From NCBI RefSeq assembly GCF_006345805.1, contig NW_021833568.1:1-28329 (forward strand): a stretch of 28,329 nucleotides of DNA. Reading direction: 5' to 3'. The notes under the pieces were generated by a model. The model searched no databases. It saw only the letters and a list, made by a program, of their open reading frames with translations, and was not told where the DNA came from. The DNA is from Octopus sinensis (lineage: Eukaryota). Both the position numbers and the translations under genes were made by a program. The stretch's first letter is position 1. Each line of letters starts with the position of its first letter. This document shows positions 202 to 28,329 of the stretch, piece by piece.

Positions 202-295
202 CAACAATTGAGGGTAAAATTAATTAATTAATCAATTTCACCAAGTATTCAGTATGCAAAGGGACCATTTAAGGCGAATTCAAATTATTACATTA

Positions 296-666
296 TATAA
301 AAGGGCTTAGTAAAATAAATTACTTTGCCGCATACTGAACTCATTAGAAATAGCAGCTAAAAAAACTTTTTTAAAAATATTCCAATACTTAAAGAAAACC
401 TCTCTCATATAGTGTTTGCTCAATTCAACTCACGCAAATATGGGGGTAGAGACATTAAAAAATCAAGTGCAAAGGTTATTTAATAACCTTTGCACTTGAT
501 TTTTTAATGTCTCTACCCCCATATTTGCGTGAGTTGAATTGAGCAAACACTATATGAGAGAGGTTTTCTTTAAGTATTGGAAATAGTTTTAAAAAGTTTT
601 TTTAGCTGCTATTTCTAATGAGTTCAGTATGCGGCAAAGTAATTTATTTTACTAAGCCCTTTTATA
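296..666. repeat. Near-perfect palindrome with ~185-bp arms and a 1-nt spacer at 481
   Basis: Left arm TATAAAAGGGCTTAG...AAAGGTTATT (296-480) is the reverse complement of 482-666, apart from a few changes in one A/T-run. Confidence 0.95.
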
Positions 667-687
667 ATATATATATATATATATATA

Positions 688-4023: not shown

Positions 4024-4229
4024 TTAATTACAGGATGCGATATTCAAGAAAGAATAATGTGTGGGGTTGTCAGGAAGAGGAGATTAGGTATAGAGGCCCT
4101 TAGAACATGGAAAGGAAACTGCATAAACAAATGAAAAAATCTAAAATTCTTTGAAATACTTTCACCACAATTTACAACACAGGAATATTAAACATAGTAA
4201 ACAAGAAACCATAGAAGTTACCCTTTTCC

Positions 4230-4565
<336 letters not shown>

Positions 4566-7727: not shown

Positions 7728-8403
7728 CATTATCATACCCAAGAATTGCAATGGTGTTCGGTAGCTTAAAAACGGGTGCAAATCATATTTTTATAACTTT
7801 TCATAAAAACATCTTTAAATCGAGAAAGAAACTTCCTCAATCACAAAGTTAATACAATATTAGGAGCTTTGCTTAAGTTGAAAATGATTCAACCATTTTG
7901 CTGGCGTATGTCATGTGATTAAGACGTCGTCATTCTAATATGGTGATATGAGTTGCAATTACCTGCTTCTTACACAATGGTCCGAACAATGGTTGTTTCA
8001 AGAAGAACCTAACTCAAATTCTTACGGTGGAATAAACAAGACTTATTCTGGTTATTAATTTCCCTTCCTTACAAATACCAAGCAGTAAACTTAGTAAAAA
8101 TGTAAGACAAACAAAAACATTGTCATTAGCTCACCTGTTTACCCTTAAACAACAACCTGTTTTAGTCCACTTCTTGCCAAAGACAAAATCGATTCTATTG
8201 TGTATTATTAATTATCCATTTTACCAATGACGCTAACCTCGATTTCATTAAATTACATTAATATATTTAATAGAATTATTTTACAGATAACATTTCAAAT
8301 GGAAATTAGGAATGGAACCTGTTCTCAGTCATCTGACATACAAAAACTTTGAGTAAAAGTAACATTTACAGAAATCAATTAGATATCATTATTTTCTACT
8401 CAC

Positions 8404-8475
8404 CTACTTGCCACCAATCGCTTCCCAATTGCCGTGCCACTTTCAGGAGATCCTTCTCCTTCAGTTTTTTAGTAT
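8404..8475 (-). CDS. Isolated 72-nt phase-1/1 exon encoding a death-domain N-terminus (paralog of 22986-23057)
   Basis: tttatttcag|AT ACT AAA...CAA GTA G|gtgagt; xTKKLKEKDLLKVARQLGSDWWQV(G). Same length, phase and flanking intron as the 22986-23057 exon. Whether it is expressed is unknown. Confidence 0.7.
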
Positions 8476-8696
8476 CTGAAATAAATACTTCCATGTTTTA
8501 CATTTTATAGTAAAATTCCTTAATCTTAATTAATAATCGATATTTTATTATCGTAAGATATTCGTATCATCAATGACCAAATGGGGACCGCAACTGTTTT
8601 GCCCAACATTTTCAAACGTTTTACACTGGTAGCATACAATAGCTTAATATCCAGCTAATCTTCCTAAATCACTTTTATTTATTAAGGTATCCTACA

Positions 8697-9925
8697 TATG
8701 ATGGTCGGTTGAAAAGTTCATATTCTGACAAAGATACTCTCAACGAATGTGAGCAAATGAGAGTTTGTATTTCAACACCCCCTCCTTGAGGTCCACGCAA
8801 TTCTTCCGTTGGTATTTCAGTTCTTGAATCCCATTGGTGAACAAGCTTTCATCCTGTTGCTCAAAAAAGTCCTCAGCAACAGATACGATGTCATCGTCAA
8901 TGCGATGACGATTCCCAACCGAGTATTTTTGAAAGTTGATGTACAAACGATAGTCAGAAGGGGGTAAATCGGGAGAAGAAGTAAGGTGATCAACTAGTTC
9001 AAAACCAGGGCCATGCTCAACAGCCATTGAAGGCAAGGACGTATGTGCTGGGTCATTGTCTTGTTTTGATGATACAGAACCCGTTGCATTAGTTTCCCGG
9101 GGCATTTGGTCTCGATAGTCTTTTGTAACTGCTTCAGTAAGATGGTATAATACCCTCCCTTGATGGCAGAGCCCTTCTGAAAATAGTCAATAAGCACAAT
9201 GCCTTTTGCATCACAAAAACCTGAGACTATCCCCTTCCATGCAGATGAAACGATGTCGGCCTTCCTTGGAACAGGTAAAGACGTGTGTTTCTACTGCATG
9301 GATTATCTTTTTGTCTGAGGCTCAAAGTGTTTAATCCAACACTCATCGTGGCTTAAGAAAGGTTCAAGGAATTCAGCTGAATCTGCTTCAAGCAATGTCG
9401 GATTTTAGAATAATGTGATCAGCCTAGTGTGCTTTTGATCAGGTCTCAGAAGACGTGGCACCCACCAAACAGAAACCATTGTCATGCCAAGTGCAGAATA
9501 TTCTCAAATCTGTCACCGAAAATGCTAATACCATTGGCTATTTGATTTATAGTCAATCACCCGTCATCCATCACCATGCGGTGAAAATGTTAAATGTTTT
9601 CCTCGGTGGTGAAAGTAGCAGGACGTCCAGACATTGGATCTTTTCAATACTCTCAGTTCGCCTCCTAAATTCAATTGTCCACTTTTGCACAGTTGATAAC
9701 GTTGGAGTGTCATCATCTAATATAGCAACCGTGTCAGCATGATCGCCCTTGGGGAATAAACCCTTTTTCTGCACGATGCCATATTTTGTCCATTTTCAAA
9801 AGAGGCCGCTACTAGTCACATTACAAGTCTTCTTTGAACATTCAGTTTTCAATTTATGTGGAATCAAAAAGTGCAGTTATTAATAAGAAGTGTTGAAATT
9901 AATGCATGCTAGATTTTACACGCTA
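8697..9925 (-). mobile_element. Old degenerate mariner, one TIR recognisable
   Basis: Fragmented transposase (LIDYFQKGSAIKGGYY, QDNDPAH, SSPDLPPSDYRLY, STVQKWTIEFRR) over several frames; TIR-like ATGATGGTCGGTTGAAAAGTTCAT at the left end. Confidence 0.88.
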
Positions 9926-9989
9926 CACTCTACATTTGTACAAACCTCATTAACTTCATATAACTAATTATCCACACGTTATGGCGGTG

Positions 9990-11350
9990 AAAAATATCTG
10001 AAATGGTACACAAGAACGGATGCTCAAGAATATATACGCAAGACGGAGATATAGATCAAACTGGACGCGGCAAATCTCGTATTTTCCGAGAGGTCCTCAC
10101 TTATCTATTGCTTATAACCCATCCTCTCTTTCTGCCATGATCTCAATGCCTCTACTCTTATTGGACAATGAGGTAGTGTACCATTGTCCTAAACATTTTA
10201 CATGTTTCTTTTCAACCTTTGACATGGTTTCACCTGCTATTTTGAACTTCTTCTGATGACCTTTGACAACTGACAGACTGCATTACTTATTAGCTTTAAA
10301 CCACACTCTTGACCAAGTAATTAGTCCATCCAGTCTATCCAGGACGATTTGTATATCATTTTACTCTCTTGTTATTATTGTCATATCATCAATTAATGCC
10401 TTCTCATGTGATTTCACTCGAGCCATTTCTTCTGATCAATCTGCTGATCTAAGTAGCTTCTCCATAACAAGCTCAAATGACCGATATTGTGCAACCTACA
10501 GGTATTTCAATTTCAAGACGATCCCACTCTGTTGTGAAATTTTCTGCCATGAACTGCATTTTGAAATTGTTATAGCAGCTCTTCATCAGATAATCTTTTC
10601 TTCCAGTATATAAAAGAAGTCCATTGCTTTCATCAACAACTGATTGGAGCTATCTACTGAGTGGTACAGAAATATAAGCATTAGCCAGATCAAACCATAC
10701 AACATTCAACTCCTTTTTACTCTCCTGTCTGTCTTGTATGCATCCCAGATTGAAAATGCTTGTTCCACACACCCACGAATTCCGGAGATGTCAGCCTTCT
10801 GGACATTTCCCGTCCTATAGACATGATTTTGTAGATATGCAGCTGATCCCGTAGCAAGTAAATCCATGTAAATCTTGTCATCTACAGTCAGGATTGAAAT
10901 TGGTCTGAATTGACCAATAAATTTTACTTTAGCTTCTTTTGTTAATTAAACTCTTCTGCCTTGCACCAGGCATCAACAGTTCATTTTTATGCTATAACAC
11001 TCTAAATGGAAGCTAAAGCTTATAACATAATTGCGTACAATACTTGTACACTTTGTCTTTATATGGTATACAAACACCTTCTGGGGCGCTCTTTCCTCTT
11101 GCTGAAATCAACCAAGCTGAAATATATGATTACTGCTTTCGATGGTCATTTCAAACTGTCCACGAGTACGAATGGTTGATCTCACTTTGGGTCACTGTAG
11201 GTCTCCTGTATATGGCCGTCCAGTCCATTTTCAGTATATTTTCCCCTACCATATTTAGTATCTGCAAACGGTTTCCTAGTAACCTCATAAGGGTTCTTAA
11301 GGATCTCTTCTCTAATTTGCTAACTCTCCTTTCTTCTGCCAATGTGTCTG
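9990..11350 (-). mobile_element. Degenerate Hero/NeSL-type (R2 group) non-LTR retrotransposon RT relic
   Basis: Minus translation KEAKVKFIGQFRPISILTVDDKIY, VQKADISGIRGCVEQAFSIW and KALIDDMTI, with many stops and frameshifts. Confidence 0.75.
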
Positions 11351-11665
11351 ATATTTCTTTGCATAAGTTAGAAAGGGAAGTTTAATATTCTTGAAGACCA
11401 AACAATCTTTCTAGGGTTTTTGGTACAATAAAATGTACCCAGGACCCTGTAGAATGTGGTTGGTGTTTGGAAAGACATACCACCATGGAAAAGTCGGAAT
11501 GTTGTAGTGAGATGTGTTCCTCAACCAATGACGGTGGATAGTAATTCTGAATAAGAACTGACTTGGATAGTGGCCATCCATCCATCCAATTGATAGGAAG
11601 ATGGAAATCAGATGATAAAAGATGAGGACGATGTCATTTATTGTATTGTATCTTGCAGCAAATAT

Positions 11666-11837
11666 TTATCCTGAAGAGAGTGAGACAACGGTTGTCCCAG
11701 CAGGAAACCAAAGTCTCCTTCTTGGACAAAGACAACGTTTAGTGCATGTAATGATAGATTTACTTTCAGTGAAAAAAGTATGTTCACAGTTGGAACAAAT
11801 TTCATTGTAACTCTGCAAGATTATGAGAGACATCTGC
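11666..11837 (-). pseudogene. Degenerate RING-like exon of a tandem paralog
   Basis: Acceptor ttgttgtttag|G. ACAATGAAATTTGTTCCAacTGTGAACAT (TMKFVP/CEH) and AAACGTTGTCT (KRCL) align with TIKFLPCGH and KRCL of exon 27692-27831; indels are present and several Cys are lost. Confidence 0.55.
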
Positions 11838-12139
11838 CTAAACAACAACAATAACAGGACACCGCATGCTTCAGAACATTCCCTACTTCTTTTAACTTCC
11901 CCAACACTACACCTGATCTACCTATGCACCTTTTTTCCTCTTTATTACTCTTTAACTGTTCTCTTTTCTGTCATTCTCTTTCATTCTTTGTATTTTGCAT
12001 GATCCAGCTTTCACTGCTGTCTTTACTTGACGAACTGCTGCTTCTTGTCCCCTCTTTAAACCTTTTCCAGTTAGTTGTAGTAGACCTGTGCTCTAAACAT
12101 GATTACATGTAAAATAGAAAACATAAAGGAAATACTTAC

Positions 12140-12959: not shown

Positions 12960-14080
12960 TTAGCAATTGACATTTAATGCATGTGAGTGCTTGATGCAGC
13001 TTCCCTCGTCTGCACCTCCTGCAACGAAGTTGGTTCATCTGGGACGCCTGACAAGAAGAGGTCCAGCATTATTTTAAAGACACCTGCATCCACCCCATGT
13101 AGGTGTCTCAGGGCCATCGGGACAATATTGAAGAGCTGTGGATCTCTAAAGCCCAGGTTACTGCAATATCTTGTCCTACATCTTGATGGCAAATTTGGAG
13201 TCCTTGGCACTATGCAGTGGCGCCCAGTTCTAATATTTGTATAACTCTCGGTGCCAAAATTTGGGACAAGATCTTCTAGGATCTTCCAGATGTATATTAT
13301 GGCATATCTTTCCCGCCTACGCTCTAAGGAATAGAGTATGAATCTCTTGAGTCTTTCCCAATAGCTTATATGCTGCATAGAGGCTATCTTCTTCGTGTTG
13401 CTTCGTTGGATTGCCTCAAGTTCTGCGATTAATTTGGCACTGGTTGGTGACCATAACTGAGAGCAATAGTCAATGTGGTTTAGGACAAGTGTCCTCCAGA
13501 AAACCATGATGGTTTCCTGGTCTCTTATTCTAAAATTTCTAAGAATCCATCCGGTCAGCCGCCTACATTTCATTGACAATTTAGTAACATGCACATGAAA
13601 GGTTGCATCATTACTCATGTAAATGGCCAGGTCTCGCACTGATTGTGCCTCTGGGATTGCAATCCCTCCAGGTCCAGTGTATTTATTGAGTATTGCATTT
13701 AGTTTTGCATGCTGATAGCATAAAGCTTGAAACTTTTCAGCATTGAACTGCATGCTATTCTTTTCAGCCCACTTGTATATTTCATCCAGCTCACAGTGCA
13801 GGTGCATAGCGTCTCCCGGTTTCTGTATTACCTGTGAAACTTTAGTATCATCTGCATAACTTGTGATCGTGGGACTCTGTGTGACTGAGAGCATGTCTGA
13901 GAGGGCCATTATGAACAGTAGTGGTCCCAAAATAGTGCCATTCTCCCAATTTTCCAACCATGCCAAAATGACGCATATTGTGACATATCATTCCATGATC
14001 AAATTTTATCAACGGCCTTTGCAACGTCGAGATATAACACTTCCACATTTGAGTGGTTGAGCAGCTGTTTCAGCAAGCAG
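12960..14080 (-). mobile_element. 5'-truncated CR1/L2-group LINE (RT C-terminal half), internally deleted
   Basis: LYLDVAKAVDK, GTILGPLLF, YADDTK, DYCSQLWSP, YSLERRRER. The segment between GKLGEW and GTILGP (which would include SGVPQG) is missing. Confidence 0.92.
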
Positions 14081-14302
14081 TATTATAAGAATGTATATAT
14101 ATATATATATACATTCTTACAATACTGGTTGCTGAATGTATACATTATTACAACACTATGACTGGAGTTGCTGCTCGCATTGCCTCCCATCGGATTAAAA
14201 AGTGTATACAGCTCATTTGAGCACTACTATTCCAGTCTGTTATATATTTTGAGCGTTGTTATCACTAACGATCTCAAGATATAACTTTATATTTTGTAAT
14301 AT

Positions 14303-14368
<66 letters not shown>

Positions 14369-14426
14369 CCATATACATACAATAGAGAGATGTTTTTGTT
14401 TCACTTTTAACACGTAATACTGAAAT

Positions 14427-14747
14427 AGTGGAGAAGATATGATACTGCTGTGGACTCGCTCTAGGCAAGAGGTTAAACATTTTTTTGCCCATGATACTAC
14501 ATGGACCCTAAGTAAGGCATGTGTAAAATTTGAATGAAATTGGTTCTGTAGTTCTCAAGTTTTAGGGAATCAGAGTGGAGAAGATATGATATTGCTATGG
14601 GCTCGCCCTAGGCAAAAAGTTAAAATTTGTTTGCTGATGACACTCCCCGGACCCTAAGTAAGGCATGTGGGAAATTTGAATGAAATCGGTTGCGTAGTTA
14701 TCAAGTTTTAGGGAAACACACAGACAGACAGACACGCATCCTTAGTG

Positions 14748-14750
<3 letters not shown>
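14427..14750. repeat. Two tandem 147-bp units followed by (CAGA)n; probable non-autonomous Helitron-like element
   Basis: AGTGGAGAAGATATGATA... starts at 14427 and 14574; the end ...AAATTTGAATGAAATCGGTTGCGTAGTT...ACAGACAGACAC...TTATATATA resembles Lep1-type Helitron derivatives. Confidence 0.7.
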
Positions 14751-14785
<35 letters not shown>

Positions 14786-14790
<5 letters not shown>

Positions 14791-16415
14791 TTAGATAAAA
14801 CTTAGATATGTTTCGACCAGAGATTGGTCCAGGCCATGTCTAACTTAATAGCACCACCTGATAGGATTATTCGAATCCTGTTTAAGTCAAGTTTTGTTCA
14901 AGTAGTGAGTTCTTGTTGGGTGAGTTGTATCCAGTTTTGTTCAAGTAGTGAGTTCTTGTTGGGTGAGTTGTATCCAATTATGGGTGGCTTGTCTGGTATT
15001 CTTTGAAGGAATCTATCCAGACTCTGTTTGAAGTTGATGGGATCCTTTTCCTCTTTGATCTCCCTCGGGACAATGTTAAATAGGGCAGGGCCTGTTGAGG
15101 AAAAGAAATTATGTTGCAGTGTACATGTATGTTGTGATCTTGAATTTGGCAGGGGACGTATAGCCGTGGTCCAAGTCTCGGATGAACCTTGAAGCTAATG
15201 TTTAGGTCGTTTGGGCAAAGTTGGCGGTATATTTTCCACATCGTACAAATGATGTACCGCTCACGGCGACGCTGGAGGGAGTAAAGTTTCAAGGCTTTAA
15301 GGCGATCCCAATAGTCGAGAGCAGCCATGCCTTCAATTTGTTTAGTGAGAGCCCTCTGGGGTGACTCAATTCTGGAGATGTTTTGTCTTGTGTGAGGAGA
15401 CCACAGTGGGCAGCAGTATTCAAGGTGTGGCCGTACAAAGGATGAAAAAAGTGGTATGATGACACCTTGTTCTCTGGACCGGAAAGTTCTTAAGATCCAG
15501 GAACTCATCCTACGAGCTGTATCGACCTTCTTGTTGATGTGTGCACTCCAACTGAGATCGTCATCAACAATTACACCCAGGTCTCTGATATTGTTAGAGG
15601 CTGTGAGCGGTTCCCCTGAAGGAAGAGAGTATGGTTGTTTTAGTGAGGAATTTCTTCCAAAATGCATCAGCTCAAATTTTCCCTCATTCAGTTGCATTTT
15701 GTTTCTGTCTGCCCATTGACTCACAGCATATAGGTCAGACTGGAGTTGAGTTCGGTCTGCTTCTTCATTGACGATTTGCTGGAGCTTAGTGTCATCAGCG
15801 AATATTTTCACTTTGCAGTGATGTACGACACTGGAAAGGTCGTTTACATAAATTATGAAGAGTAGCGGACCCAAAACAGTTCCCTGGGGAACACCGCTGG
15901 TGACTTTTGCTGGGTTTGAGTGGACTCCATCAACTACAACATGTTGTGTTCTATTCGCTAGGAAATACTGAATCCAGTGTAGAACTTTTCCACGGATTCC
16001 AACATTTGCCAATTTTGAGAGTAGGATTTTATGGTCTACCCTGTCGAACGCTTTACTGAAGTCAAGGTATATGACGTCAGAGTTCGAACCTGTTCCCAAG
16101 GCTTTGAGTACATCTTCAATGTGGTGTAAGAGCTGTGTTAGACAGTCCCTGCCACAGCGAAAGCCATGTTGATTTGAATTTAGGAGTTTGTGGGTCTCCA
16201 GGAAGTCAGCTATCCTTGATCTTAACACTCTTTCAAACACTTTAATGATGTGGGAGGTGAGTGAGATTGGGCGATAGTTGACTGCGAGGGATCTGTTTCC
16301 CTGTTTGAAAACCGGGATGACCGACTGGGATAGAAACTTATTCGGTATATAACCTGCGTCTAACGAGTTTCTCCAAAGGTTGGTCAGAGGGACTGCAAGT
16401 TGATATCTACATTCC
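14786..16415 (-). mobile_element. Young 5'-truncated CR1/L2-group LINE (RT domain to 3' end)
   Basis: Frame open from about 16415 (QLAVPL...NYRPISLTS) through YLDFSKAFD, SGVPQGTVLGPLLF and FADDTK. One frameshift near 15165, a 3' hairpin and an (ATCTAAGTTTT)2 tail; (TA)n on both sides. Confidence 0.95.
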
Positions 16416-19380: not shown

Positions 19381-20260
19381 TCTTTTCCCTTTCAATAGCA
19401 ATTTCTTATCAATTTCCGAAATAAAATTGAGGCAATTTAAATAGTTTTGTATTTAATTACCGAATTAAACCAGATTTGTTAACTCCTATCAGAAAAGAAT
19501 CCTACAACCAGTGGATAATGACTATGTGTCTTACAATCTTGTTTCATTAAATTATGTACGGTAGAGCTTTCTGTCACATCCCACAATTTTATAGACAAAG
19601 GAAGTCCGCCAAGGAAGCTTCAAGTGTTTTACTTCTTTAAAACATTTTCTACGTCTATGGTGAAAAGAATTATGAAATTAAAATAAAAATTAAAATGCGA
19701 TAACATCCGAGTAGTATGATGTTAAATATTGTTGGGCAAAATAGAACTTTTCCATTATCTCAAGTTATTCCGATACTGTGGACTCACTGTGACTTTTCCT
19801 CAATCACATGAAATTACAGTAACAAATACTGTGATGTTATTTCATTACGACAGTTATACTTAAATTTAAATTTATTAAAACTTGGTAGCTAGAAAATAAA
19901 GAGCAGCCTAGAGCTAGAATACAAAATAAAATGATTATTAATTGCACTCACAACCCCATGAAGTTTTATACAAGCATCCCCACTTTAAACTGGTCTTAAA
20001 CCATAACAGAACAAAGAGAGATATCCTTAGATACATCGTATATTATATAGAAATACTATCTCTATGTGATATATATTCATAGAAAAAAACACATCAATGT
20101 ATGTATACCAGACATTTTGTTCTAAGCTATAAATGAAGGGAGATAACTATTAATTTCGCAGAGGATATTAAAACTGTCTAAATAACAATGAAAGTGTTTA
20201 GGGAAGTGATTATATATACAACAACAGCAACAACAACAAACGGATATTTCAAAGTTTATC

Positions 20261-20266
20261 TTTATT
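20261..20266 (-). promoter_or_regulatory. Candidate polyadenylation signal AATAAA
   Basis: Minus-strand AATAAA about 210 nt after the stop at 20476; weak evidence in AT-rich DNA. Confidence 0.3.
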
Positions 20267-20475
20267 TCAAAAGCTTATTTCTAACAAAGGAGCCAAACCA
20301 GTGAAGATAGATCTGCTAGAATTAGTAGCTAAATCCACTGCACTCCACACCTCATCATTGTAAAGGAGGACACATTGGAGAATGTGGTTCTTGGTTCTCT
20401 ATACTTTGGTCAAAGGTCTCTCTCTTTGGTCAGCATTCACCTGGGAGTAAACAACAGCAGAATTTACACAGAAAT

Positions 20476-20681
20476 TCACCGTTCATATAATGAGAGATAC
20501 TCAAGGGCAGCAAAGCACTCAGCATCTTTAAGGGCTTTTCTGAGGGTCTCAACTGTACGTTCCTCTGGTTTACAATTTATAAACCACTCACAAAGCATTT
20601 GATAACTCTGTTTTACTGTGTCATGAGGAAAATCATTCTTGATAATATTCTGGTCAATTGCTGGAACTCCTAGAAAAATAC
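20476..20681 (-). CDS. Terminal coding exon: remainder of the death domain
   Basis: cttttgcag|GT ATT TTT...; (G)IFLGVPAIDQNIIKNDFPHDTVKQSYQMLCEWFINCKPEERTVETLRKALKDAECFAALEYLSLYER*. Death-domain pattern LG..I..I...Q...ML..W...T...L..AL. Confidence 0.88.
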
Positions 20682-21299
20682 CTGCAAAAGATACAACGAC
20701 AGAAAATAACAGGAACAGCAACATTAACAATAATACAAAGACTATGTACTGTAAGTTATAAATATAACAAAGAATCTACACCAATAGAGAAATAACGAAA
20801 TAAATAAGAAACATGAAAACTATAAGAAATTGTTCTCTATTTTTAAGAATGTTGACAAAAATAACAAAGAGGTTAAAATAAAGAAGTAAGAAGAAGAAAT
20901 ATTAAAAAGAAAGAAGGATTTGAGAAAATGTATGGTAAACAGCTGACAGGAGCAGTATTTGTGTGGAAAATATCCTTTGTTAAGGAAGGCTTTGAAAAAC
21001 CATCTGATAACATCAACGCTGGAAATAACGATGTGTGATACCCCTTCCTCGTCTGGAATATCAACATTTAGACATACTTGGAAAGTGGGGACTGGGTTGA
21101 CAAACATTACCTGTAATATTCGGTACACGGTGACCAATTAAATAACAAATAGACAAGATACCAGAATGATCACAATGACACAAAAAAATAATATTTCTTA
21201 ATTCTCCTCAAATATTATAGAAGACACCAAATTAATTTTCTTGGTTCATGACTCAAAATAATGATTTCTTTCACTGGATCAAGTCCACAATGTAGAGAG

Positions 21300-21916
21300 A
21301 GATGTCGACAATGGAGTAAACCTAGCAATGAATAGTGTTTTAATTAACAGGAAAGAGGTGGGTAAGTAGGAATTCTATAAGCCAAGGTGATGCAGTGGGA
21401 CCAGAGGTATGTTCACAGGGTAGAGGAAATACTTTGTCATTAGCAGATATACGGGGGTCGCTATAGTAAGAACAATTATGGAAGTTGTAGTTGATGGTTT
21501 CTGTTACCTTGGTAATATAATTAAAAGTGGAGGAAACTATTTTGCATTCATACTATTTAGAGCAAAATATGAGGTGAAAAATGCACAGTTAGCTATTATG
21601 CCTGTTGGTAACAAAGAGATTCCGTTTGTATGATGCAATGATGCATTGAATATGGAGGATGTATGAAAACTGGCAAGAAATTAAGAGAGCATTCTTTACT
21701 GGATGTGTAATGCTAATGTGTAGAAATCAGGGGAAAAAATGAACTGGAAGAAAAACTAGGTGGTGCAGATATGGGAGGCGTACGGAAGATACAAGCTGGA
21801 TGAAGAAGTACCAGGAAATCCAGATGGAAGTAAACAAGAAGTTAAATCTGTCAAAGGACGACAACAGCTGTGAGATAAGTAGTCTAACTCATTCAAACTT
21901 CGAGAAATGAAAACAA

Positions 21917-21945
<29 letters not shown>
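21300..21945 (+). mobile_element. Highly degenerate RTE-clade LINE 3' fragment with a (GAT)n tail
   Basis: EVVVDGFCYLGNIIKSGG resembles RTE EVVDxFxYLG; (GAT)n at 21917-21945. Confidence 0.6.
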
Positions 21946-21947
<2 letters not shown>

Positions 21948-22985
21948 CGTTGTTTGTGGATTGATTTTAGCCCAGTATATGACTGTTAGATTTTATATTA
22001 ATTCCAAAGGTATAACATGTTCGACATGTCATAGATGATATCCTCTCTTAATTTAGATAAACCATTTCTATCAGCTGACTGACAGGATATTGTCGTGACT
22101 TCTTGTATCCAGGCTGGAAGGTTCAAATCTAGTCCCCGGCACTGCTCTATATCCCTGCTAAAGGCGTCTCTCTATGATGCAGTCTACCTAGATGCATATA
22201 GGTACCATGGGAAGGCATTTGTGTAAATAATGGGAACATTGTATAAATGGTATTTTATGTTGTTACACATTCAGACAAGGGGAAATGGGTTATTGTGATG
22301 TTCATGCCTTTCCAAATGACTTTGTAATGTAAAGAGAGAGTGAAGTGATTTCAATGAGAAACAAAATCAATTCGAATTTACATATGATGGCATAATTATT
22401 TTATAATTAGGAAGTGTTTCATTAACTTATAAGTACTGAGTTCAATCCAGCAATGAAGACAATCAACAATGTGATTGTCTGTTTAGAGACAAGACAATAG
22501 GTTGACCTGGGGCTAAAGAATTACTATAAATATAGGAAAACAGACTGGCGAAAGGGCAGGCTACAACATGTCACATAAAATGCACACTCTCCTATTTAAA
22601 AAGTTCCATTTGGTAATTTGGTCCTTATCTACCTTTCTTCATAATATTGCCAGATTAAGTCTACACAACAACAACAACAACCTATCATTAAATTAAGTAG
22701 AAACGTAAACAACGTAAACAACAAAAGCGTCGCTATTAACTCACCTGTTTACCTTTAAATAACAAAAGAACTTCGTTCCTTGTATCAACTCTATTGTAAT
22801 TTCTAATTTCACCAAGTATGCAAAACTATGCTAATTTCGGTAGATATTTTATGAAGTTTCAGTAATATCTTTAGCTAACATTTCAACAGGAAATTAGGAA
22901 TGGAAACTTTTCTTTGTTATTTTAACAAACAAAACTTCAAGTAATGGTAAAATTTATAGAAAGCAATTAGGTATTCTATACTCAC

Positions 22986-23057
22986 CTGCTTGCTGCCAGT
23001 TGCTCCCTAACTTCTCTGCTGCTCTTTTGAGATACTCCCCATTCAGGTTTAGAGACT
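22986..23057 (-). CDS. 72-nt phase-1/1 exon: death-domain N-terminus
   Basis: tttatttcag|AG TCT CTA...GCA G|gtgagt; xSLNLNGEYLKRAAEKLGSNWQQA(G); joins 20681 in frame to give LGSNWQQAGIFLGV. Confidence 0.88.
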
Positions 23058-23329
23058 CTGAAATAAATATTTCCAAACATTACACTTCACAGTACAATTT
23101 CTTTGTCTCTGTTAATTGGTCTTTATTTTATTAATGTATTTTATATTGTAAGACATTCCTATTATCAATGGTCAATATTAAGAACCACAACTAAATAGAC
23201 TCACCTTCCTAAACTTCTTGTATCTATTAAAATATCCTACATTATCAATTAACTTAGCAGTTATCTGATTTAATTATTACTCGACGAACGAGTTTACTTC
23301 TGTTCCGCAATTCTCTAAGTCGTACGTAA

Positions 23330-23660
23330 AGCTTATAACAGAATCCTGTACAAATACTTGTACACCTTCTATGGTATACTATTGCCTTATGGGGCACCCA
23401 TTGCTCTTGCCTTCTTCACACAGCTATCTGATTGGTGTTGGTTTAAATCACTTTGCTGAAATTTGATTCCTAGCTTCATTCGATATTTCAAACCCTCCAT
23501 GAGCTGGAACTGCTGGCCTTGCTGTGGGTCACTGTAGGGATCCTGTATATACCTGTCTAGTTCATCTTCAGTACATTTTACACTACTTCATTTTGCATCT
23601 GCAAATAGATTCCTATTAACATCATAAGGGTTCTGAAGGAGTTTTTCTCTAATTCAACCT
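23330..23660 (-). mobile_element. Hero-like relic homologous to 11020-11320
   Basis: Colinear DNA similarity, e.g. AAGCTTATAACA, GGGTCACTGTAGG, CATAAGGGTTCT. Confidence 0.7.
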
Positions 23661-23694
23661 CATTTCCTGTTTCAGTTGTTGCAGTCAGAGTGGA

Positions 23695-23960
23695 TGGTCT
23701 CTTTTTCAACCCTGCTCCAGACATAATAATCCATGGGATTACAATCAAGGCAATTAGGAGGCTAAACATGGGTTCATGGAAGCCGTATAAATTCTCGGAC
23801 AGTCACTTCTGATTCTTCTTGCTGGTATGGAAAGGAACTGCATTCTGCTATCATGTATAAGGCCTTCGAACAGCGACCGTGTCCAGCCAGATTTGACCAC
23901 CGTCTCTAGGAGCATTAACAGCCATCTGAATTGAACTTAAGGCTGTGTTCAAAGACGTCA
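23695..23960 (-). mobile_element. maT/DD37D-type Tc1/mariner transposase relic
   Basis: Minus RPYT**QNAVPFHTSKKNQK*LSEN...PPNCLDCNPMDYYVW, matching QQDSAPxH / WPPNSPDxNPxDYxVW. Confidence 0.75.
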
Positions 23961-24764
23961 GCTTCAATGGAGACACATCTGAAGACATGCTGGCCACTGC
24001 TTCGTAAACTCCGTTGCAGCTTTACAATGTTTACAGAGTATTGAACAGCAGCCATGATGTTGACATTTTGATACATGGTATTTGTGCATCATAATACAGG
24101 TAAATCTTTCCCAGTCTCCAGTGATCTTCCAATCCTGTATGTCAGCTAAAATTTTCTCAATTACATTTTTCATCTTTATAATGTCCATCGACATTGATTG
24201 TTCATAAATGCATACTGTTATCTCTGAAAAAATGTGACATAAACAGTTATCAAATTTATTGAGAACATATTGTAACTGTGCTATGCGTAAGAAATGATAT
24301 TCTCTTCTCATGTCTAGAAATTACTAACCAAAATTCTTCTCATCTTCCAGTATTCCAATGTTAACCAGCATGATCATTATATGATCTACTCACAAACAAC
24401 TGACACATCATTTCAAGTAAGATAAGCATTTGCCTGCCGTCTTTCTTAATTGTTGCTGTTGGTAGTTGTTCATAAAACCGCCCTTATCTACAGTTCACCA
24501 GAGTGTCATCTGATACAGGAAACGTTTGAAGACATTTCAATGTCGCTCATTCCCCTTAAAGACATAATTCTCAACAGATGAAATGGAACAGAAAATTATT
24601 TCAGGTGTTCTAAAATACTTTATATTTTCACAAACCCTCATTAACTACATATCAATTGTCATTCACACATTATTACAGGAAAAATAGCTGAAATGGTAAT
24701 TTATCCATATTCCCAACTATGCCAAACTTGGTGATTATTTTCCGAAATTTCAGTAATATTCATA

Positions 24765-25150
24765 CCATCATCCATTATCCATTCTGGCGTGGGTTGAATG
24801 GCCAGGAACTAGCCAGGCCAGGTGTTGCACCAGGTTCTATAATCTCTTTTCTGTTGGTTTCTATGGCTGGAGACCCTTCCTTACACCAACCACTTTACAC
24901 AATATGCTGCATGCTTTTTTCGTTTCACCAGCACTAGTGCATTTTTACCAGCACCAGTTCAGCACCCATTCTAATCCTTTTTATGTGGTACCTTAATTTT
25001 AGGATCTCAATTCAGTTAGGGTGGGCAGGTCTTTTCGAGTACAGTAATGCGCTCCATATTTCATCTCTGTCATTTGTTTCGTAAGGCTCAGTGTTTTGAG
25101 ATCGGCCTTCAACATTTCGTCCAATGTCTTCCTGGGTCTCCTTCTCCCAC
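24765..25150 (-). mobile_element. RTE-related repeat fragments
   Basis: Reverse of the GGTTGGTGTAAGGAAGGG...AGCCATAGAAACC motif, plus a GRPRKTLDEMLK-like RTE C-terminal piece. Confidence 0.5.
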
Positions 25151-25399
25151 ATCATCCCTAATCTCTTTCTCAAACATTGATGCTGTTAATCTTGAATTTC
25201 AACTTCTTGCTTCCCAGTTAACCAGAATGTCAGCTGATTCAGGAAATATTTGAAGACATCTGAATATCATTCATATTCCTTAATGAAGCAGATATCTTTC
25301 CAGGTGAGCGAGGATTAGTTCTACACAGGTCGAACAGCTAAATAATAATAACAGGTGTCTTAAAACACTATACATTTGTATCAAATACCATTAACTACA

Positions 25400-26064
25400 T
25401 GCAACTGGTGAGCAACATGTTACTCTAAGGAATATATCTTAAATGGTATGTAAGAAGTGATTCTCAAAAATATTTAAGCAAGACGGAGATGCAGATCAAA
25501 CTGGAAGCGACAAATCTGATATTTGTTCAGACACTTTGGCGTATCTACTGCTTATAATTCTTACATCTGTGACAAGGTATGTATCAATTCCTCGTTTCCT
25601 ACCAGACAGCAAGCTAGCACACCATCGTCCTAATCTTTATATAGGCTTGTCTTTAACATTTGGTCTCGTTTCTCCTGTTATTTTTGAAATTTACTTGCTT
25701 CTGCTTATATTTGACAAATGACAGACTGCATTACGTATTTACTTTAACCTTCATTCTTCACCAAGTAATTACTTAATCCAGAACTATTTGCATATCTTTG
25801 GGTCTCTTGTTAGTATTGTGATGTCATCCATGGAGTCTTTTTAGATGAATCCACTTGAGCCGTTTCTTATGATCAACCTGCTGATCATAAAGTCTCCATC
25901 ATAAGCAGAAAATAAATGCTGTACAAACTACAGCAATTCCAATCTCAAAAAGGTGCCAGTCTGTTGTGAAGTTTTCTTTCATGAAGCACATTTTGAAATT
26001 GTTATAGCAAACCCCATCACATGCTTAATCTTTTCGCATATATAAAAGAAGTCTATTGCTTCCA
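25400..26064 (-). mobile_element. Hero-like relic homologous to about 9940-10640
   Basis: Colinear DNA similarity, e.g. GCAAGACGGAGAT..AGATCAAACTGGA, TGACAGACTGCATTAC, CATTTTGAAATTGTTATAGCA. Confidence 0.75.
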
Positions 26065-26138
26065 TTAATAATTTTTGTGGTCATTAACTAAGTTTTGTGC
26101 CACTTTCTCAAGGGGCTGCTTTTTTGTGGCACTCGAGT
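26065..26138 (-). pseudogene. Degenerate copy of the death-domain first exon (donor lost, in-frame stop)
   Basis: ttttacaag|AC TCG...; xSSATKKQPLEKVAQNLVNDHKNY* aligns without gaps to xTKKLKEKDLLKVARQLGSD; the upstream intron is homologous to that of the other copies. Confidence 0.65.
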
Positions 26139-26559
26139 CTTGTAAAATTCTTATTTGTATTGATAATCTTTCTACAATGCGCAATGAGAAACCACTATGG
26201 CTTCGGTTAACATTTTCATATTTTCTACAGATTTCCTATGTAATAGCTCAATATTATGTCCACAACAAAATGGACCAACCTTCCTAAATCTCCTCTTTCT
26301 ATTAAGATGCTCTACATAATCTAACAATGTGGCAATTATCTCATTTAATTATCACTTGACAACCCCGCTTTATCTATTTTACCAAACATGTTAACCATGA
26401 CTTTATGAAATTTCAGTAATATTTTTAATGCAATTACTTTAGAGCTAACCTTTCAAATGGAAATTAGAGATGGGATCTGTTCTCCACCATTCTAATACGC
26501 AAAATAGCTGAGGTGAATGTAAAATCTATAGAAATTAATTAAGTTCTCTAATTCTAAAC

Positions 26560-26610
26560 TCATCACTGTGTCTGACACTGTCTGCACTTCCTTCTCTTCA
26601 AACTTTGGAT
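26560..26610 (-). CDS. Candidate short linker exon derived from the death-domain first exon; donor uncertain
   Basis: atttcaag|AT CCA AAG TTT GAA GAG AAG GAA GTG CAG ACA GTG (DPKFEEKEVQTVSDTVM). The homologous donor position reads ATGAGT; the GT 4 nt downstream gives a 51-nt phase-1/1 exon. Confidence 0.45.
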
Positions 26611-27691
26611 CTTGAAATATGGTTTCAAGTTTTAGATTATTAATAGCACAATTTCTTTTATTATAATAATCTTATTTTATTATGAGAGACATTCATATCT
26701 TCAATGGCCAGCCAGCGATCATAATGCTTTTGGTCAATATTTTTATACTTTCAACAGTGGACCCATGTATAGCCAATATTTAGCTCCAAACGAACTCTAG
26801 TTGATCTTTGTAAATTTCCTCTCTCTGTTAAGATATCCTACATAATCTAACAATGTTGTAATTATATCACTTAATTATCACTTAATAACAGTTTATCTGT
26901 AGGTTTTGGTTTCCTTGCTTATATCTATAACCCTAAATGTATTCTCAAAACTCTAATCTTCACTAACAACCTGTTTAATTCCAGTGTCAACAAATTTATT
27001 CATCAAAGATATAACAACAAACACATGTCACAACCACTTCAAGAAGGAGAAACATACTCTTAATCTCTTTGTTAAACATTGTTGCTGATAATCCCTAATT
27101 TTAACTTCACAGTTCACCAGAATGTCATCTCATTCAGGATATATTTGAAGGTTTCATGATCTGGTTGCTTGACAAAACAAAACTGTCTCTATTAGCCTTA
27201 TATCCTCCAATTACAAACATAACAACATGGAATTGTGTGTTAAAGTCTCTCAAACTAGTGACATCTATTTTACTCCTTTAAACTATTCTACTGATTTAAT
27301 ACTTTACCAAAGATGACACTGATGTCCTTGTAAGTACTGTTGTATTTACTTATCTTCTAATAACTCCTAATTAATTATAGTGTTGACGGAGATTTATTGA
27401 TACTTCAGTTACTCACTAATTATCTTGCAGAATCCTCCATTATCTTTATGTTGCAGACTACAACCCTCTTGAAGTGTGACATGTTTCCTACTTGGATAAG
27501 GTCAATGTTTGGTGGATGTAGTGTGAGAGATATAATATTACAGAGAACAGACACCAGGAACACCTTTATTCATAAATCTGCCAGATTATGGCAGACCTCT
27601 GTCTACATAACAACATGAAGTATATTATTCTATACAATAAGGGCAATGGGACAAGCAGGACAAACAGACAGATCAGCAAAGATTTTCTTAC

Positions 27692-27831
27692 CATCTCCAG
27701 TTCTGCTCGTTACAGGTTTCCCGCACTTCAGACATCGTTTAAGTGAGATTTTCGAACATGTTTCACATGTGACAAAATGCCCGCATGGAAGAAATTTTAT
27801 TGTGGCCGTTTTATTTCTGCACCACAAACAC
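27692..27831 (-). CDS. RING-finger exon (C3HC4, Mind bomb/IAP type) of a RING + death-domain protein
   Basis: ttctacag|G TGT...GAT G|gtaaga (140 nt, phase 2 to 1); CLWC-x11-CGH-x3-CETC-x7-CLKC with all 8 ligands. Upstream exons were not found in the window. Confidence 0.9.
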
Positions 27832-28329
27832 CTGTAGAACAAAATAGAAACATATCAAACCAATAACATTCATTTATAAGAAATATTAGAAATATTACAT
27901 TATGTACATGTTTGGAGTAGAGAATATTATGAGACGCTCCAGTGACAAGCAAGAGTACATCAGAAATTCTTCTTTAAACAATTACATACATACAGAATTG
28001 TGTGTAGTTAAATGGCATGCTCACAAACACACACACATACATACATACACACACATGCATACACACATTCATAAATGTTTGTCTTGACCCTGACACATCA
28101 TAGAAATTGGTTGACACACAGTGAACTGCATATATTCCAGAAATATATTTCACTTCTAACATCGAACTCATTTCTTCTGAACAAATATATCTACACAGAT
28201 TTCTTATATACACATACTTTATTATATACACTTTATTATATATATCCCGTCTCCACAGATTAGCAGATGAGGTTTCCAGTACTGCAGAGTGCAGAAATTA
28301 CCCGAATCTAGTACAGGTCAACTAGACAC

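What the first reader, a model, noticed from the sequence alone, without database searches (positions are those of the whole stretch)
22850..26890. Array of duplicated exon cassettes for the first death-domain helix
Seen: three homologous exon-plus-intron cassettes lie between the RING and terminal exons: D-PKFEEKEVQTVS (26610), xSSATKKQPLEKVAQNLVND (26138) and xSLNLNGEYLKRAAEKLGSNW (23057). A fourth, xTKKLKEKDLLKVARQLGSDW, is at 8475. All start in phase 1 and share flanking motifs (ATTAA..T..CTACAT upstream in all four; GGAAATTAG downstream in three). Inference: cassette duplication both created a new linker exon and supplies interchangeable DD N-termini, a possible mutually exclusive splicing route to altered DD partner specificity. 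Only one upstream copy is clearly intact here.
Basis: partly seen in the sequence, partly recalled or inferred. Interest (0 to 1): 0.7.

Follow-up and report, generated by a model that had tools for sequence, protein, structure and literature searches.

The report
Death-domain exon copies became linkers
In a family of over 100 octopus genes that join ankyrin repeats, a RING finger and a death domain, copies of the death domain's first exon have mostly turned into short spacer exons spliced one after another, likely setting the distance between the domains, while the extra copies in this window are broken and give no choice of death domain.

Summary
The cassettes are real homologues, but there is no array of interchangeable death-domain (DD) exons here. 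Only 23057 is intact and spliced to the terminal exon (RNA contigs, 2 of 4 runs). 26610 is a 51-nt linker-class copy without a donor. 26138 is a truncated remnant. 8475 lies in a 4-kb fragment of another paralog, 12 kb past the stop codon.

The gene belongs to an octopus ankyrin-RING-DD family (130 terminal-exon matches). In 81 of 81 loci with an intact Trp-bearing DD-first exon, it is the last intact cassette. Upstream copies are Trp-less 48-78-nt in-frame linkers. RNA contigs and RefSeq models join them in series; the models also skip them in combinations. None of the four known mutual-exclusion mechanisms is met.

Swapping occurs in DNA: RING and DD are discordant in 23 of 351 locus pairs. 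Two of 112 loci keep two DD-first exons (one pair differs at 6 residues), so rare alternative use remains open. The scan noted similar cassette duplication on other DNA of this genome. No paper on the family turned up in five searches.

The parts
27692..27831 (-). RING (C3HC4) exon, phase 2 to phase 1, eight zinc ligands present; 98% identical to the RING of paralog L052. The ankyrin exons would lie beyond the contig end.
   Evidence: (window is the whole contig)
26564..26610 (-). Cassette c1: dead copy of the 51-nt linker class; donor GT replaced by AT (AT in L052, TT in L037, GT in L050); acceptor region probably carries sequencing gaps
   Evidence: sister to the L050 51-nt linker, support 97
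26369..26371 (.). Junction private to this contig: joins an L052-type RING+c1 half to an L031/L033/L037-type DD half; about 2.5 kb present in L037 is missing
   Evidence: (0 of 39 other scored matches span it)
26084..26370 (-). Cassette c2: upstream flank plus a decayed, truncated exon remnant (26138-26084) without pyrimidine tract or donor
22986..23057 (-). Cassette c3: intact 72-nt phase 1-1 DD-first exon; encodes helix 1 and the start of helix 2 with the invariant Trp
   Evidence: (joint 20679-22984 in X1, X6)
20476..20681 (-). Terminal coding exon: rest of the death domain and stop
8404..8475 (-). Cassette c4: intact 72-nt DD-first exon of a different paralog, orphaned
   Evidence: sister to L052, support 99
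7907..11854 (-). 3.95-kb intron-exon fragment of an L052-type paralog that carries c4
   Evidence: 94.6% identity

Best explanation
This is the 3' half of one member of a large octopus ankyrin-RING-death-domain family in which the first death-domain exon and its intron flanks were copied repeatedly; the last intact copy stays the death-domain exon, upstream copies lose the tryptophan and either decay (both do in this window) or are spliced in series as in-frame spacers that are predicted to be skippable and likely set the reach between RING and death domain. Every copy is phase 1-1 and a multiple of three, so any subset keeps the frame and duplication or loss is cheap (shown from sequence). 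Whole death-domain halves are also exchanged between paralogs in the DNA, with switch points in the linker region (shown for assembled loci; the recombination mechanism is inferred). This window looks like such a product and would splice RING directly to c3 and the terminal exon (inferred; that first joint was not seen). The proteins likely act as ubiquitin-ligase adaptors in death-domain signalling complexes (inferred from domain content only).
For: Family: 130 terminal-exon matches in G000; 57 protein hits, all named Octopus; Pfam finds ankyrin in 8 of 8, RING in 7 of 8 and Death in 7 of 8 long models. Census: of 77 loci 60 have an intact DD-first exon and it is last in 60 of 60; of 35 more, 21 of 21. 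The first census also holds 84 intact Trp-less exons of 48-78 nt. Serial splicing in RNA contigs: 51-nt to 51-nt (X5) and Trp-less 72-nt to DD-first (X5, X3; not listed for the probable DNA run X19) on L056; a 78-nt linker lies directly before a c3-type exon in X1 (loose end; mapped). Models: P0001 has four 78-nt linkers, then a c3-type exon. Nine isoforms of one gene and 21 of another vary linkers and keep the same DD-first exon. AlphaFold of P0001: 10-residue pLDDT blocks 93-98 over residues 111-190, 40-70 over the linker. Exchange: RING versus terminal exon discordant in 23 of 351 pairs (rho 0.24); DD-first versus terminal exon in 0 of 1830 at protein thresholds (rho 0.65). Switch points mapped in L045, L037 and the window.
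Against: Combinatorial skipping rests on predicted isoforms; short reads from near-identical paralogs could create them, and no skip joint was among the 15 listed (229 not shown). RNA evidence is contigs of runs only guessed to be RNA, laid at 88-90% likeness, so joints may come from paralogs. At DNA level 16 of 503 pairs with terminal exons at least 90% alike have DD-first cassettes under 85% alike, and L050/L052 switch between the two DD exons, so the DD is not always exchanged whole. L080, L161 and P0031 keep two Trp-bearing exons. Near-identical scaffolds inflate all counts. No function was tested.
Confidence: 0.78

Rival explanations
1. One reading: the cassettes are mutually exclusive exons that give one gene several death-domain N-termini.
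For: L161 has two intact Trp-bearing exons 1.1 kb apart that differ at 7 of 72 nt (6 amino acids) against 8 of 258 flank nt, Fisher p 0.026. L080 has two identical copies. P0030 and P0031 place different Trp exons before the same terminal exon. One subfamily has a 13-nt complement of the cassette donor in the RING intron.
Against: c1 and c2 are dead and c4 is outside the gene. Serial joints exist in RNA contigs. 22 of 23 multi-protein groups never show two different DD-first exons. P0030 and P0031 are two accessions of one locus, probably two annotation releases, and P0031 includes both exons in series. The complement is confined to five near-identical loci, pairs at z of about -1 to -3, and is absent from L080, which has the same cassettes.
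Confidence: 0.06
2. The copies are neutral debris of unequal crossing-over; the linker is tolerated filler and the many isoforms are splicing noise or annotation artefacts.
For: 56 of 182 near-full cassette hits have no intact exon by my rule. pN is close to pS among Trp-less 72-nt exons (0.349 against 0.354). Several loci carry stops or lack the DD-first exon (L034, L036, L038, L135).
Against: 126 of 182 stay open and in frame. 78-nt linkers show pN 0.047 against pS 0.110. A Trp-less 72-nt linker is shared with O. bimaculoides models (P0008, P0029). This rival shares the anatomy of the best explanation and denies only a function for linker length.
Confidence: 0.3
3. The c1-c2-c3 'array' of this window is an assembly chimera of two paralogs, not a real allele.
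For: No other scored place in G000 spans 26370. Long contigs of all four laid runs leave the window at 26371 (table 8). The segment upstream has one-sided single-base gaps.
Against: L037 shows the same order with 2.5 kb more and is itself a switch between two types; comparable switches occur on chromosome-scale contigs (L045, L063, L102). The family-level conclusions do not depend on this junction.
Confidence: 0.35

Closest known systems
Mutually exclusive exon clusters from tandem duplication (Dscam, 14-3-3zeta, Mhc; PMC6071210, passages read)
   Same: Similar exons in tandem, duplicated together with flanking intron.
   Different: Here copies are joined in series, diverge to other lengths, lose the domain's core residue, and no exclusion mechanism was found.
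Mind bomb MIB1/MIB2 E3 ligases (source names of many hits)
   Same: Ankyrin repeats followed by a zf-C3HC4_3 RING.
   Different: No MIB/HERC2, ZZ or SH3_15 match in 8 long models (these defining domains are recalled); one RING, then a linker and a C-terminal death domain.
RIPK1, FADD and ankyrin death domains
   Same: Best sequence match in PDB is the RIPK1 DD (E 2.6e-4); Foldseek ranks FADD, ankyrin, TNFR1 and RAIDD DDs first (best E 6e-3, rmsd 1.7).
   Different: Identity by structure is 19-29%; no kinase, DED or ZU5 region was found; the partner is unknown.
Expanded oyster IAPs with RING and DD (PMC8917759, passages read)
   Same: Mollusc lineage expansion of RING- and DD-bearing proteins, with splice variants that change domain content.
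   Different: BIR repeats instead of ankyrin repeats; no DD-derived linker exons in the passages seen.

Membership tests
Mutually exclusive exon cluster | One and only one exon of the cluster per mRNA | tested here: not met
   Serial joints in RNA contigs and serial models. Not testable for L161 and L080.
Mutually exclusive exon cluster | Two or more intact, splice-competent equivalent exons in the gene | tested here: not met
   One in this gene; two in 2 of 112 paralogous loci.
Mutually exclusive exon cluster | Steric exclusion by a very short intron | tested here: not met
   Shortest of 84 introns between intact cassettes is 115 nt, and a 115-nt intron is spliced in X5.
Mutually exclusive exon cluster | Frameshift and decay on double inclusion, or mixed U2/U12 sites | tested here: not met
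   Intact cassettes are multiples of 3 with AG/GT ends; my search rule required this, but DD-first exons are 72 nt and the models confirm the frame.
Mutually exclusive exon cluster | Conserved docking site complementary to selector sequences | tested here: not met
   Downstream test 8.5 against 8.6 nt shuffled (n 146); upstream 9.4 against 8.4 (n 50), the excess from one subfamily. Only 400-nt docking windows were tested.
Death domain superfamily | Helical death fold with conserved Trp; Pfam Death above cutoff | tested here: met
   (fold modelled on paralog P0001, 97% identical over the terminal exon).
MIB1/MIB2 | N-terminal MIB/HERC2, ZZ and SH3_15 (REP) domains (recalled) | tested here: not met
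   Absent in 8 of 8 long models at E 0.001; models may be 5'-incomplete.
MIB1/MIB2 | Ankyrin repeats followed by RING | tested here: met
   ankyrin exons lie outside this contig.
RING E3 ligase | Ubiquitin-ligase activity | not testable with these tools
   Only the C3HC4 ligand pattern and Pfam match were seen.

The most novel reading that the evidence does not exclude
Octopods run an undescribed diversified repertoire of more than 100 ankyrin-RING-death-domain ligases with three layers of variation from one recycled exon: combinatorial linker splicing (20 or more isoforms a gene), DNA-level reassortment of sensor/RING halves with death-domain halves across the cassette region, and, in young duplicates such as L161, a true choice between two death-domain first helices plus isoforms that drop the helix and switch the domain off.
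Probability: 0.25. Interest if true: 0.7.

Novelty: new variant of a known kind. Interest (0 to 1): 0.42.

Why it matters
It shows, with intermediates still in the genome, how an exon that encodes part of a folded domain is recycled into spacer exons. L080 and L161 hold fresh copies, Trp-less 72-nt copies keep the length, and 51-nt copies follow a 21-nt deletion. It also flags a large octopus ankyrin-RING-death-domain family that databases label MIB2-like although it lacks the MIB N-terminus; this is a candidate immune or cell-death repertoire. The window itself is an ordinary, partly decayed and possibly misassembled member.

Tried and rejected
No RNA holder was on record for window 20200-28000; runs guessed to be RNA were used. 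No joint from RING to c1, c2 or c3 was among the 15 listed (20 not shown): not used as evidence. Contigs cover the introns too, so cover says nothing on expression.

The number of origins of linkers is unresolved: the free flank tree (90 of 148 rows after removing near-copies) needs 8 changes, but a single linker clade is not rejected (AU p 0.76) and scored higher than the free tree. Exons are less alike than their flanks (0.66 against 0.76 for DD-first pairs), but flanks were aligned with gaps left out, so this is not claimed as selection.

The 13-nt donor complement was rejected as a docking site. Open frames at 24320-23967, 23587-23390, 11381-11154, 10881-10720 and 10649-10476 have no Pfam match. 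A first RING/DD comparison by pattern caught only 11 loci and was redone. No ankyrin or RING match lies within 34 kb upstream of L161, so its gene is not shown to be complete. Range outside Octopus: searches returned only Octopus names, which is weak evidence given word-limited searches; the profile search over cluster representatives was not run.

Paper searches on the family (listings only): 14 papers; 19; 0; 0; 2; none describes it by title or abstract start. Searches were for exon-duplication background. PMC11463336 passages cover ankyrin-caspases, not this family. Supplements were not read and could list these genes. About 15 of the 130 matches, mostly stop-containing arrays, were not fetched.

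Full report
What is in the window. The window is a whole contig of G000. On the minus strand lie a RING exon (27831-27692), cassettes c1 (26610), c2 (26138) and c3 (23057-22986), and a terminal death-domain (DD) exon (20681-20476); c4 (8475-8404) is 12 kb further on. An HMM from 61 paralogous cassettes confirms homology for c1, c3, c4 and the upstream flank of c2. Only c3 is usable. c1 has AT for GT at the donor, as does L052; L037 has TT. Its odd acceptor lies in a stretch with 15 one-base gaps in the window against 2 in L037, whereas L037 against L052 shows 1 and 3. c2 lacks the pyrimidine tract and donor, and its frame depends on an A6 run that is A4 in three paralogs; its exon part scores E 0.74. 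c4 is in a fragment 94.6% identical to L052, with no terminal exon behind it. In a tree of flanks c1, c3 and c4 fall with different paralogs, so they are not a local triplication.

The family. The terminal exon has 130 matches in G000. A profile search returned 57 proteins, all named as Octopus species, mostly ankyrin repeats, one RING, a linker and a DD. I fetched up to 10 kb upstream for 112 loci. In the first 77, 60 have an intact 72-nt Trp-bearing exon and it is the last intact cassette in all 60; 84 other intact cassettes are Trp-less and 48-78 nt long. In the other 35 the count is 21 of 21. 'Intact' means my rule: a TTYYAG acceptor, a GT donor, 45-96 nt, a multiple of 3, no stop. Near-identical scaffolds are counted separately. 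The 72-nt exon gives helix 1 and the start of helix 2; Leu, Leu, Leu and Trp are 95-100% conserved among 40 distinct copies.

How the cassettes are spliced. On the window, contigs of 2 of 4 runs join c3 to the terminal exon. One contig continues upstream of a c3-type exon into a sequence that is the 78-nt linker exon of L031/L033. On L056, contigs join 51-nt exon to 51-nt exon (X5) and the Trp-less 72-nt exon to the DD-first exon (X5, X3); neither joint is listed for the probable DNA run X19, and loose ends in X5 join DD-first to terminal exon. Of 119 database proteins with a recognisable terminal exon, 102 have a DD-first exon before it, 10 have the RING and 7 something else. Of 23 groups that share a terminal exon, only one shows two different DD-first exons. 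Isoform sets of 9 and 21 models differ in which linkers they include. A few models skip the DD-first exon itself (P0038, P0124). These are predictions. None of the four exclusion mechanisms listed in PMC6071210 (passages) is met.

Where swapping does occur. Among 27 loci with RING and terminal exon, 23 of 351 pairs are discordant; three unrelated RINGs (27-46% alike) sit on terminal exons 85-97% alike. The window's RING is 98% like that of L052 while its terminal exon is 48% like. L045 and L037 switch paralog type within the linker region. DD-first and terminal exon usually travel together (0 of 1830 discordant at protein thresholds), with exceptions at DNA level (16 of 503). The window's own junction at 26370 is unique among 40 scored matches and may be real or an assembly error.

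L080 has a recent duplication with two identical DD-first exons 5.1 kb apart. L161 has three 1.1-kb copies: two intact exons that differ at 6 residues, and a third with a 21-nt deletion that removes the Trp. P0031 from O. bimaculoides carries two Trp exons in series. Skipping could give alternative first helices in such genes. I had no RNA test left for them. I read them mainly as early stages of the path from DD exon to linker (inference; the tree is unrooted and does not fix direction or number of origins).

Mechanism and status. Shown: anatomy, decay of c1 and c2, separate origin of c4, position rule, frame symmetry, serial joints in paralogs, RING/DD discordance among assembled loci. Predicted by annotation: combinatorial skipping. 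Inferred: a role of linker length in RING reach, recombination as the cause of discordance, and a role in DD signalling. Tandem duplication of symmetric exons is a known process. The conversion of a structured-domain exon into a variable linker across a 100-gene family was not found in five paper searches. Earlier notes of this scan report similar cassette duplication in other genes of this genome and nothing on this sequence.

Noticed in passing
L161 5645 and 4560 (minus); L168-L169 (adjacent upstream stretches): Two intact, diverged DD-first exons in a 1.1-kb triplication; four 66-nt linker exons in 3.1-kb repeats 21-31 kb upstream. Best candidate for a real choice of first helix.
   Followed up: partly
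L080 613 and 5732: Two identical DD-first exons in a 94% identical 1.6-kb duplication, after seven 51-nt and one 72-nt linker in L114.
   Followed up: partly
L034, L036, L038: Close paralogs in which a deletion removes all cassettes, leaving RING 1.7 kb from the terminal exon; their RING starts with a stop. Models P0002 and P0004 join RING to a DD without its first helix.
   Followed up: partly
L135 2550-9898; G000 C1 near 41.74 Mb and 107.09 Mb: Tandem arrays (3.5-kb period in L135) of terminal DD exons, most with a stop codon.
   Followed up: no
L042, L049, L051, L055, L056, RING intron about +151: 13-nt exact complement of the cassette donor region; confined to this subfamily.
   Followed up: yes
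window 22744-22752 and 8134-8142 (minus): A shared motif downstream of c3 and c4 that looks like an 8-9-nt micro-exon with a good donor; no RNA joint to it was listed.
   Followed up: no
window 12977-16414, 814-1826, 2578-2990, 8743-9795 (minus): Long frames that look like reverse-transcriptase and mariner-type transposase remnants (labels recalled, not searched); one such insertion interrupts the c4 fragment.
   Followed up: no
window 4221-4556 (minus): About four C2H2 zinc-finger units at 84-nt period, interrupted by a stop (label recalled).
   Followed up: no
window 25365-26071 and 23313-23654, matching 9925-10639 and 11000-11317: Intronic segments shared by many paralogs, in opposite order around c3 and c4; no Pfam match.
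   Followed up: partly
window 289-673: 192-nt inverted repeat, 96% complementary, 1 nt between arms.
   Followed up: no
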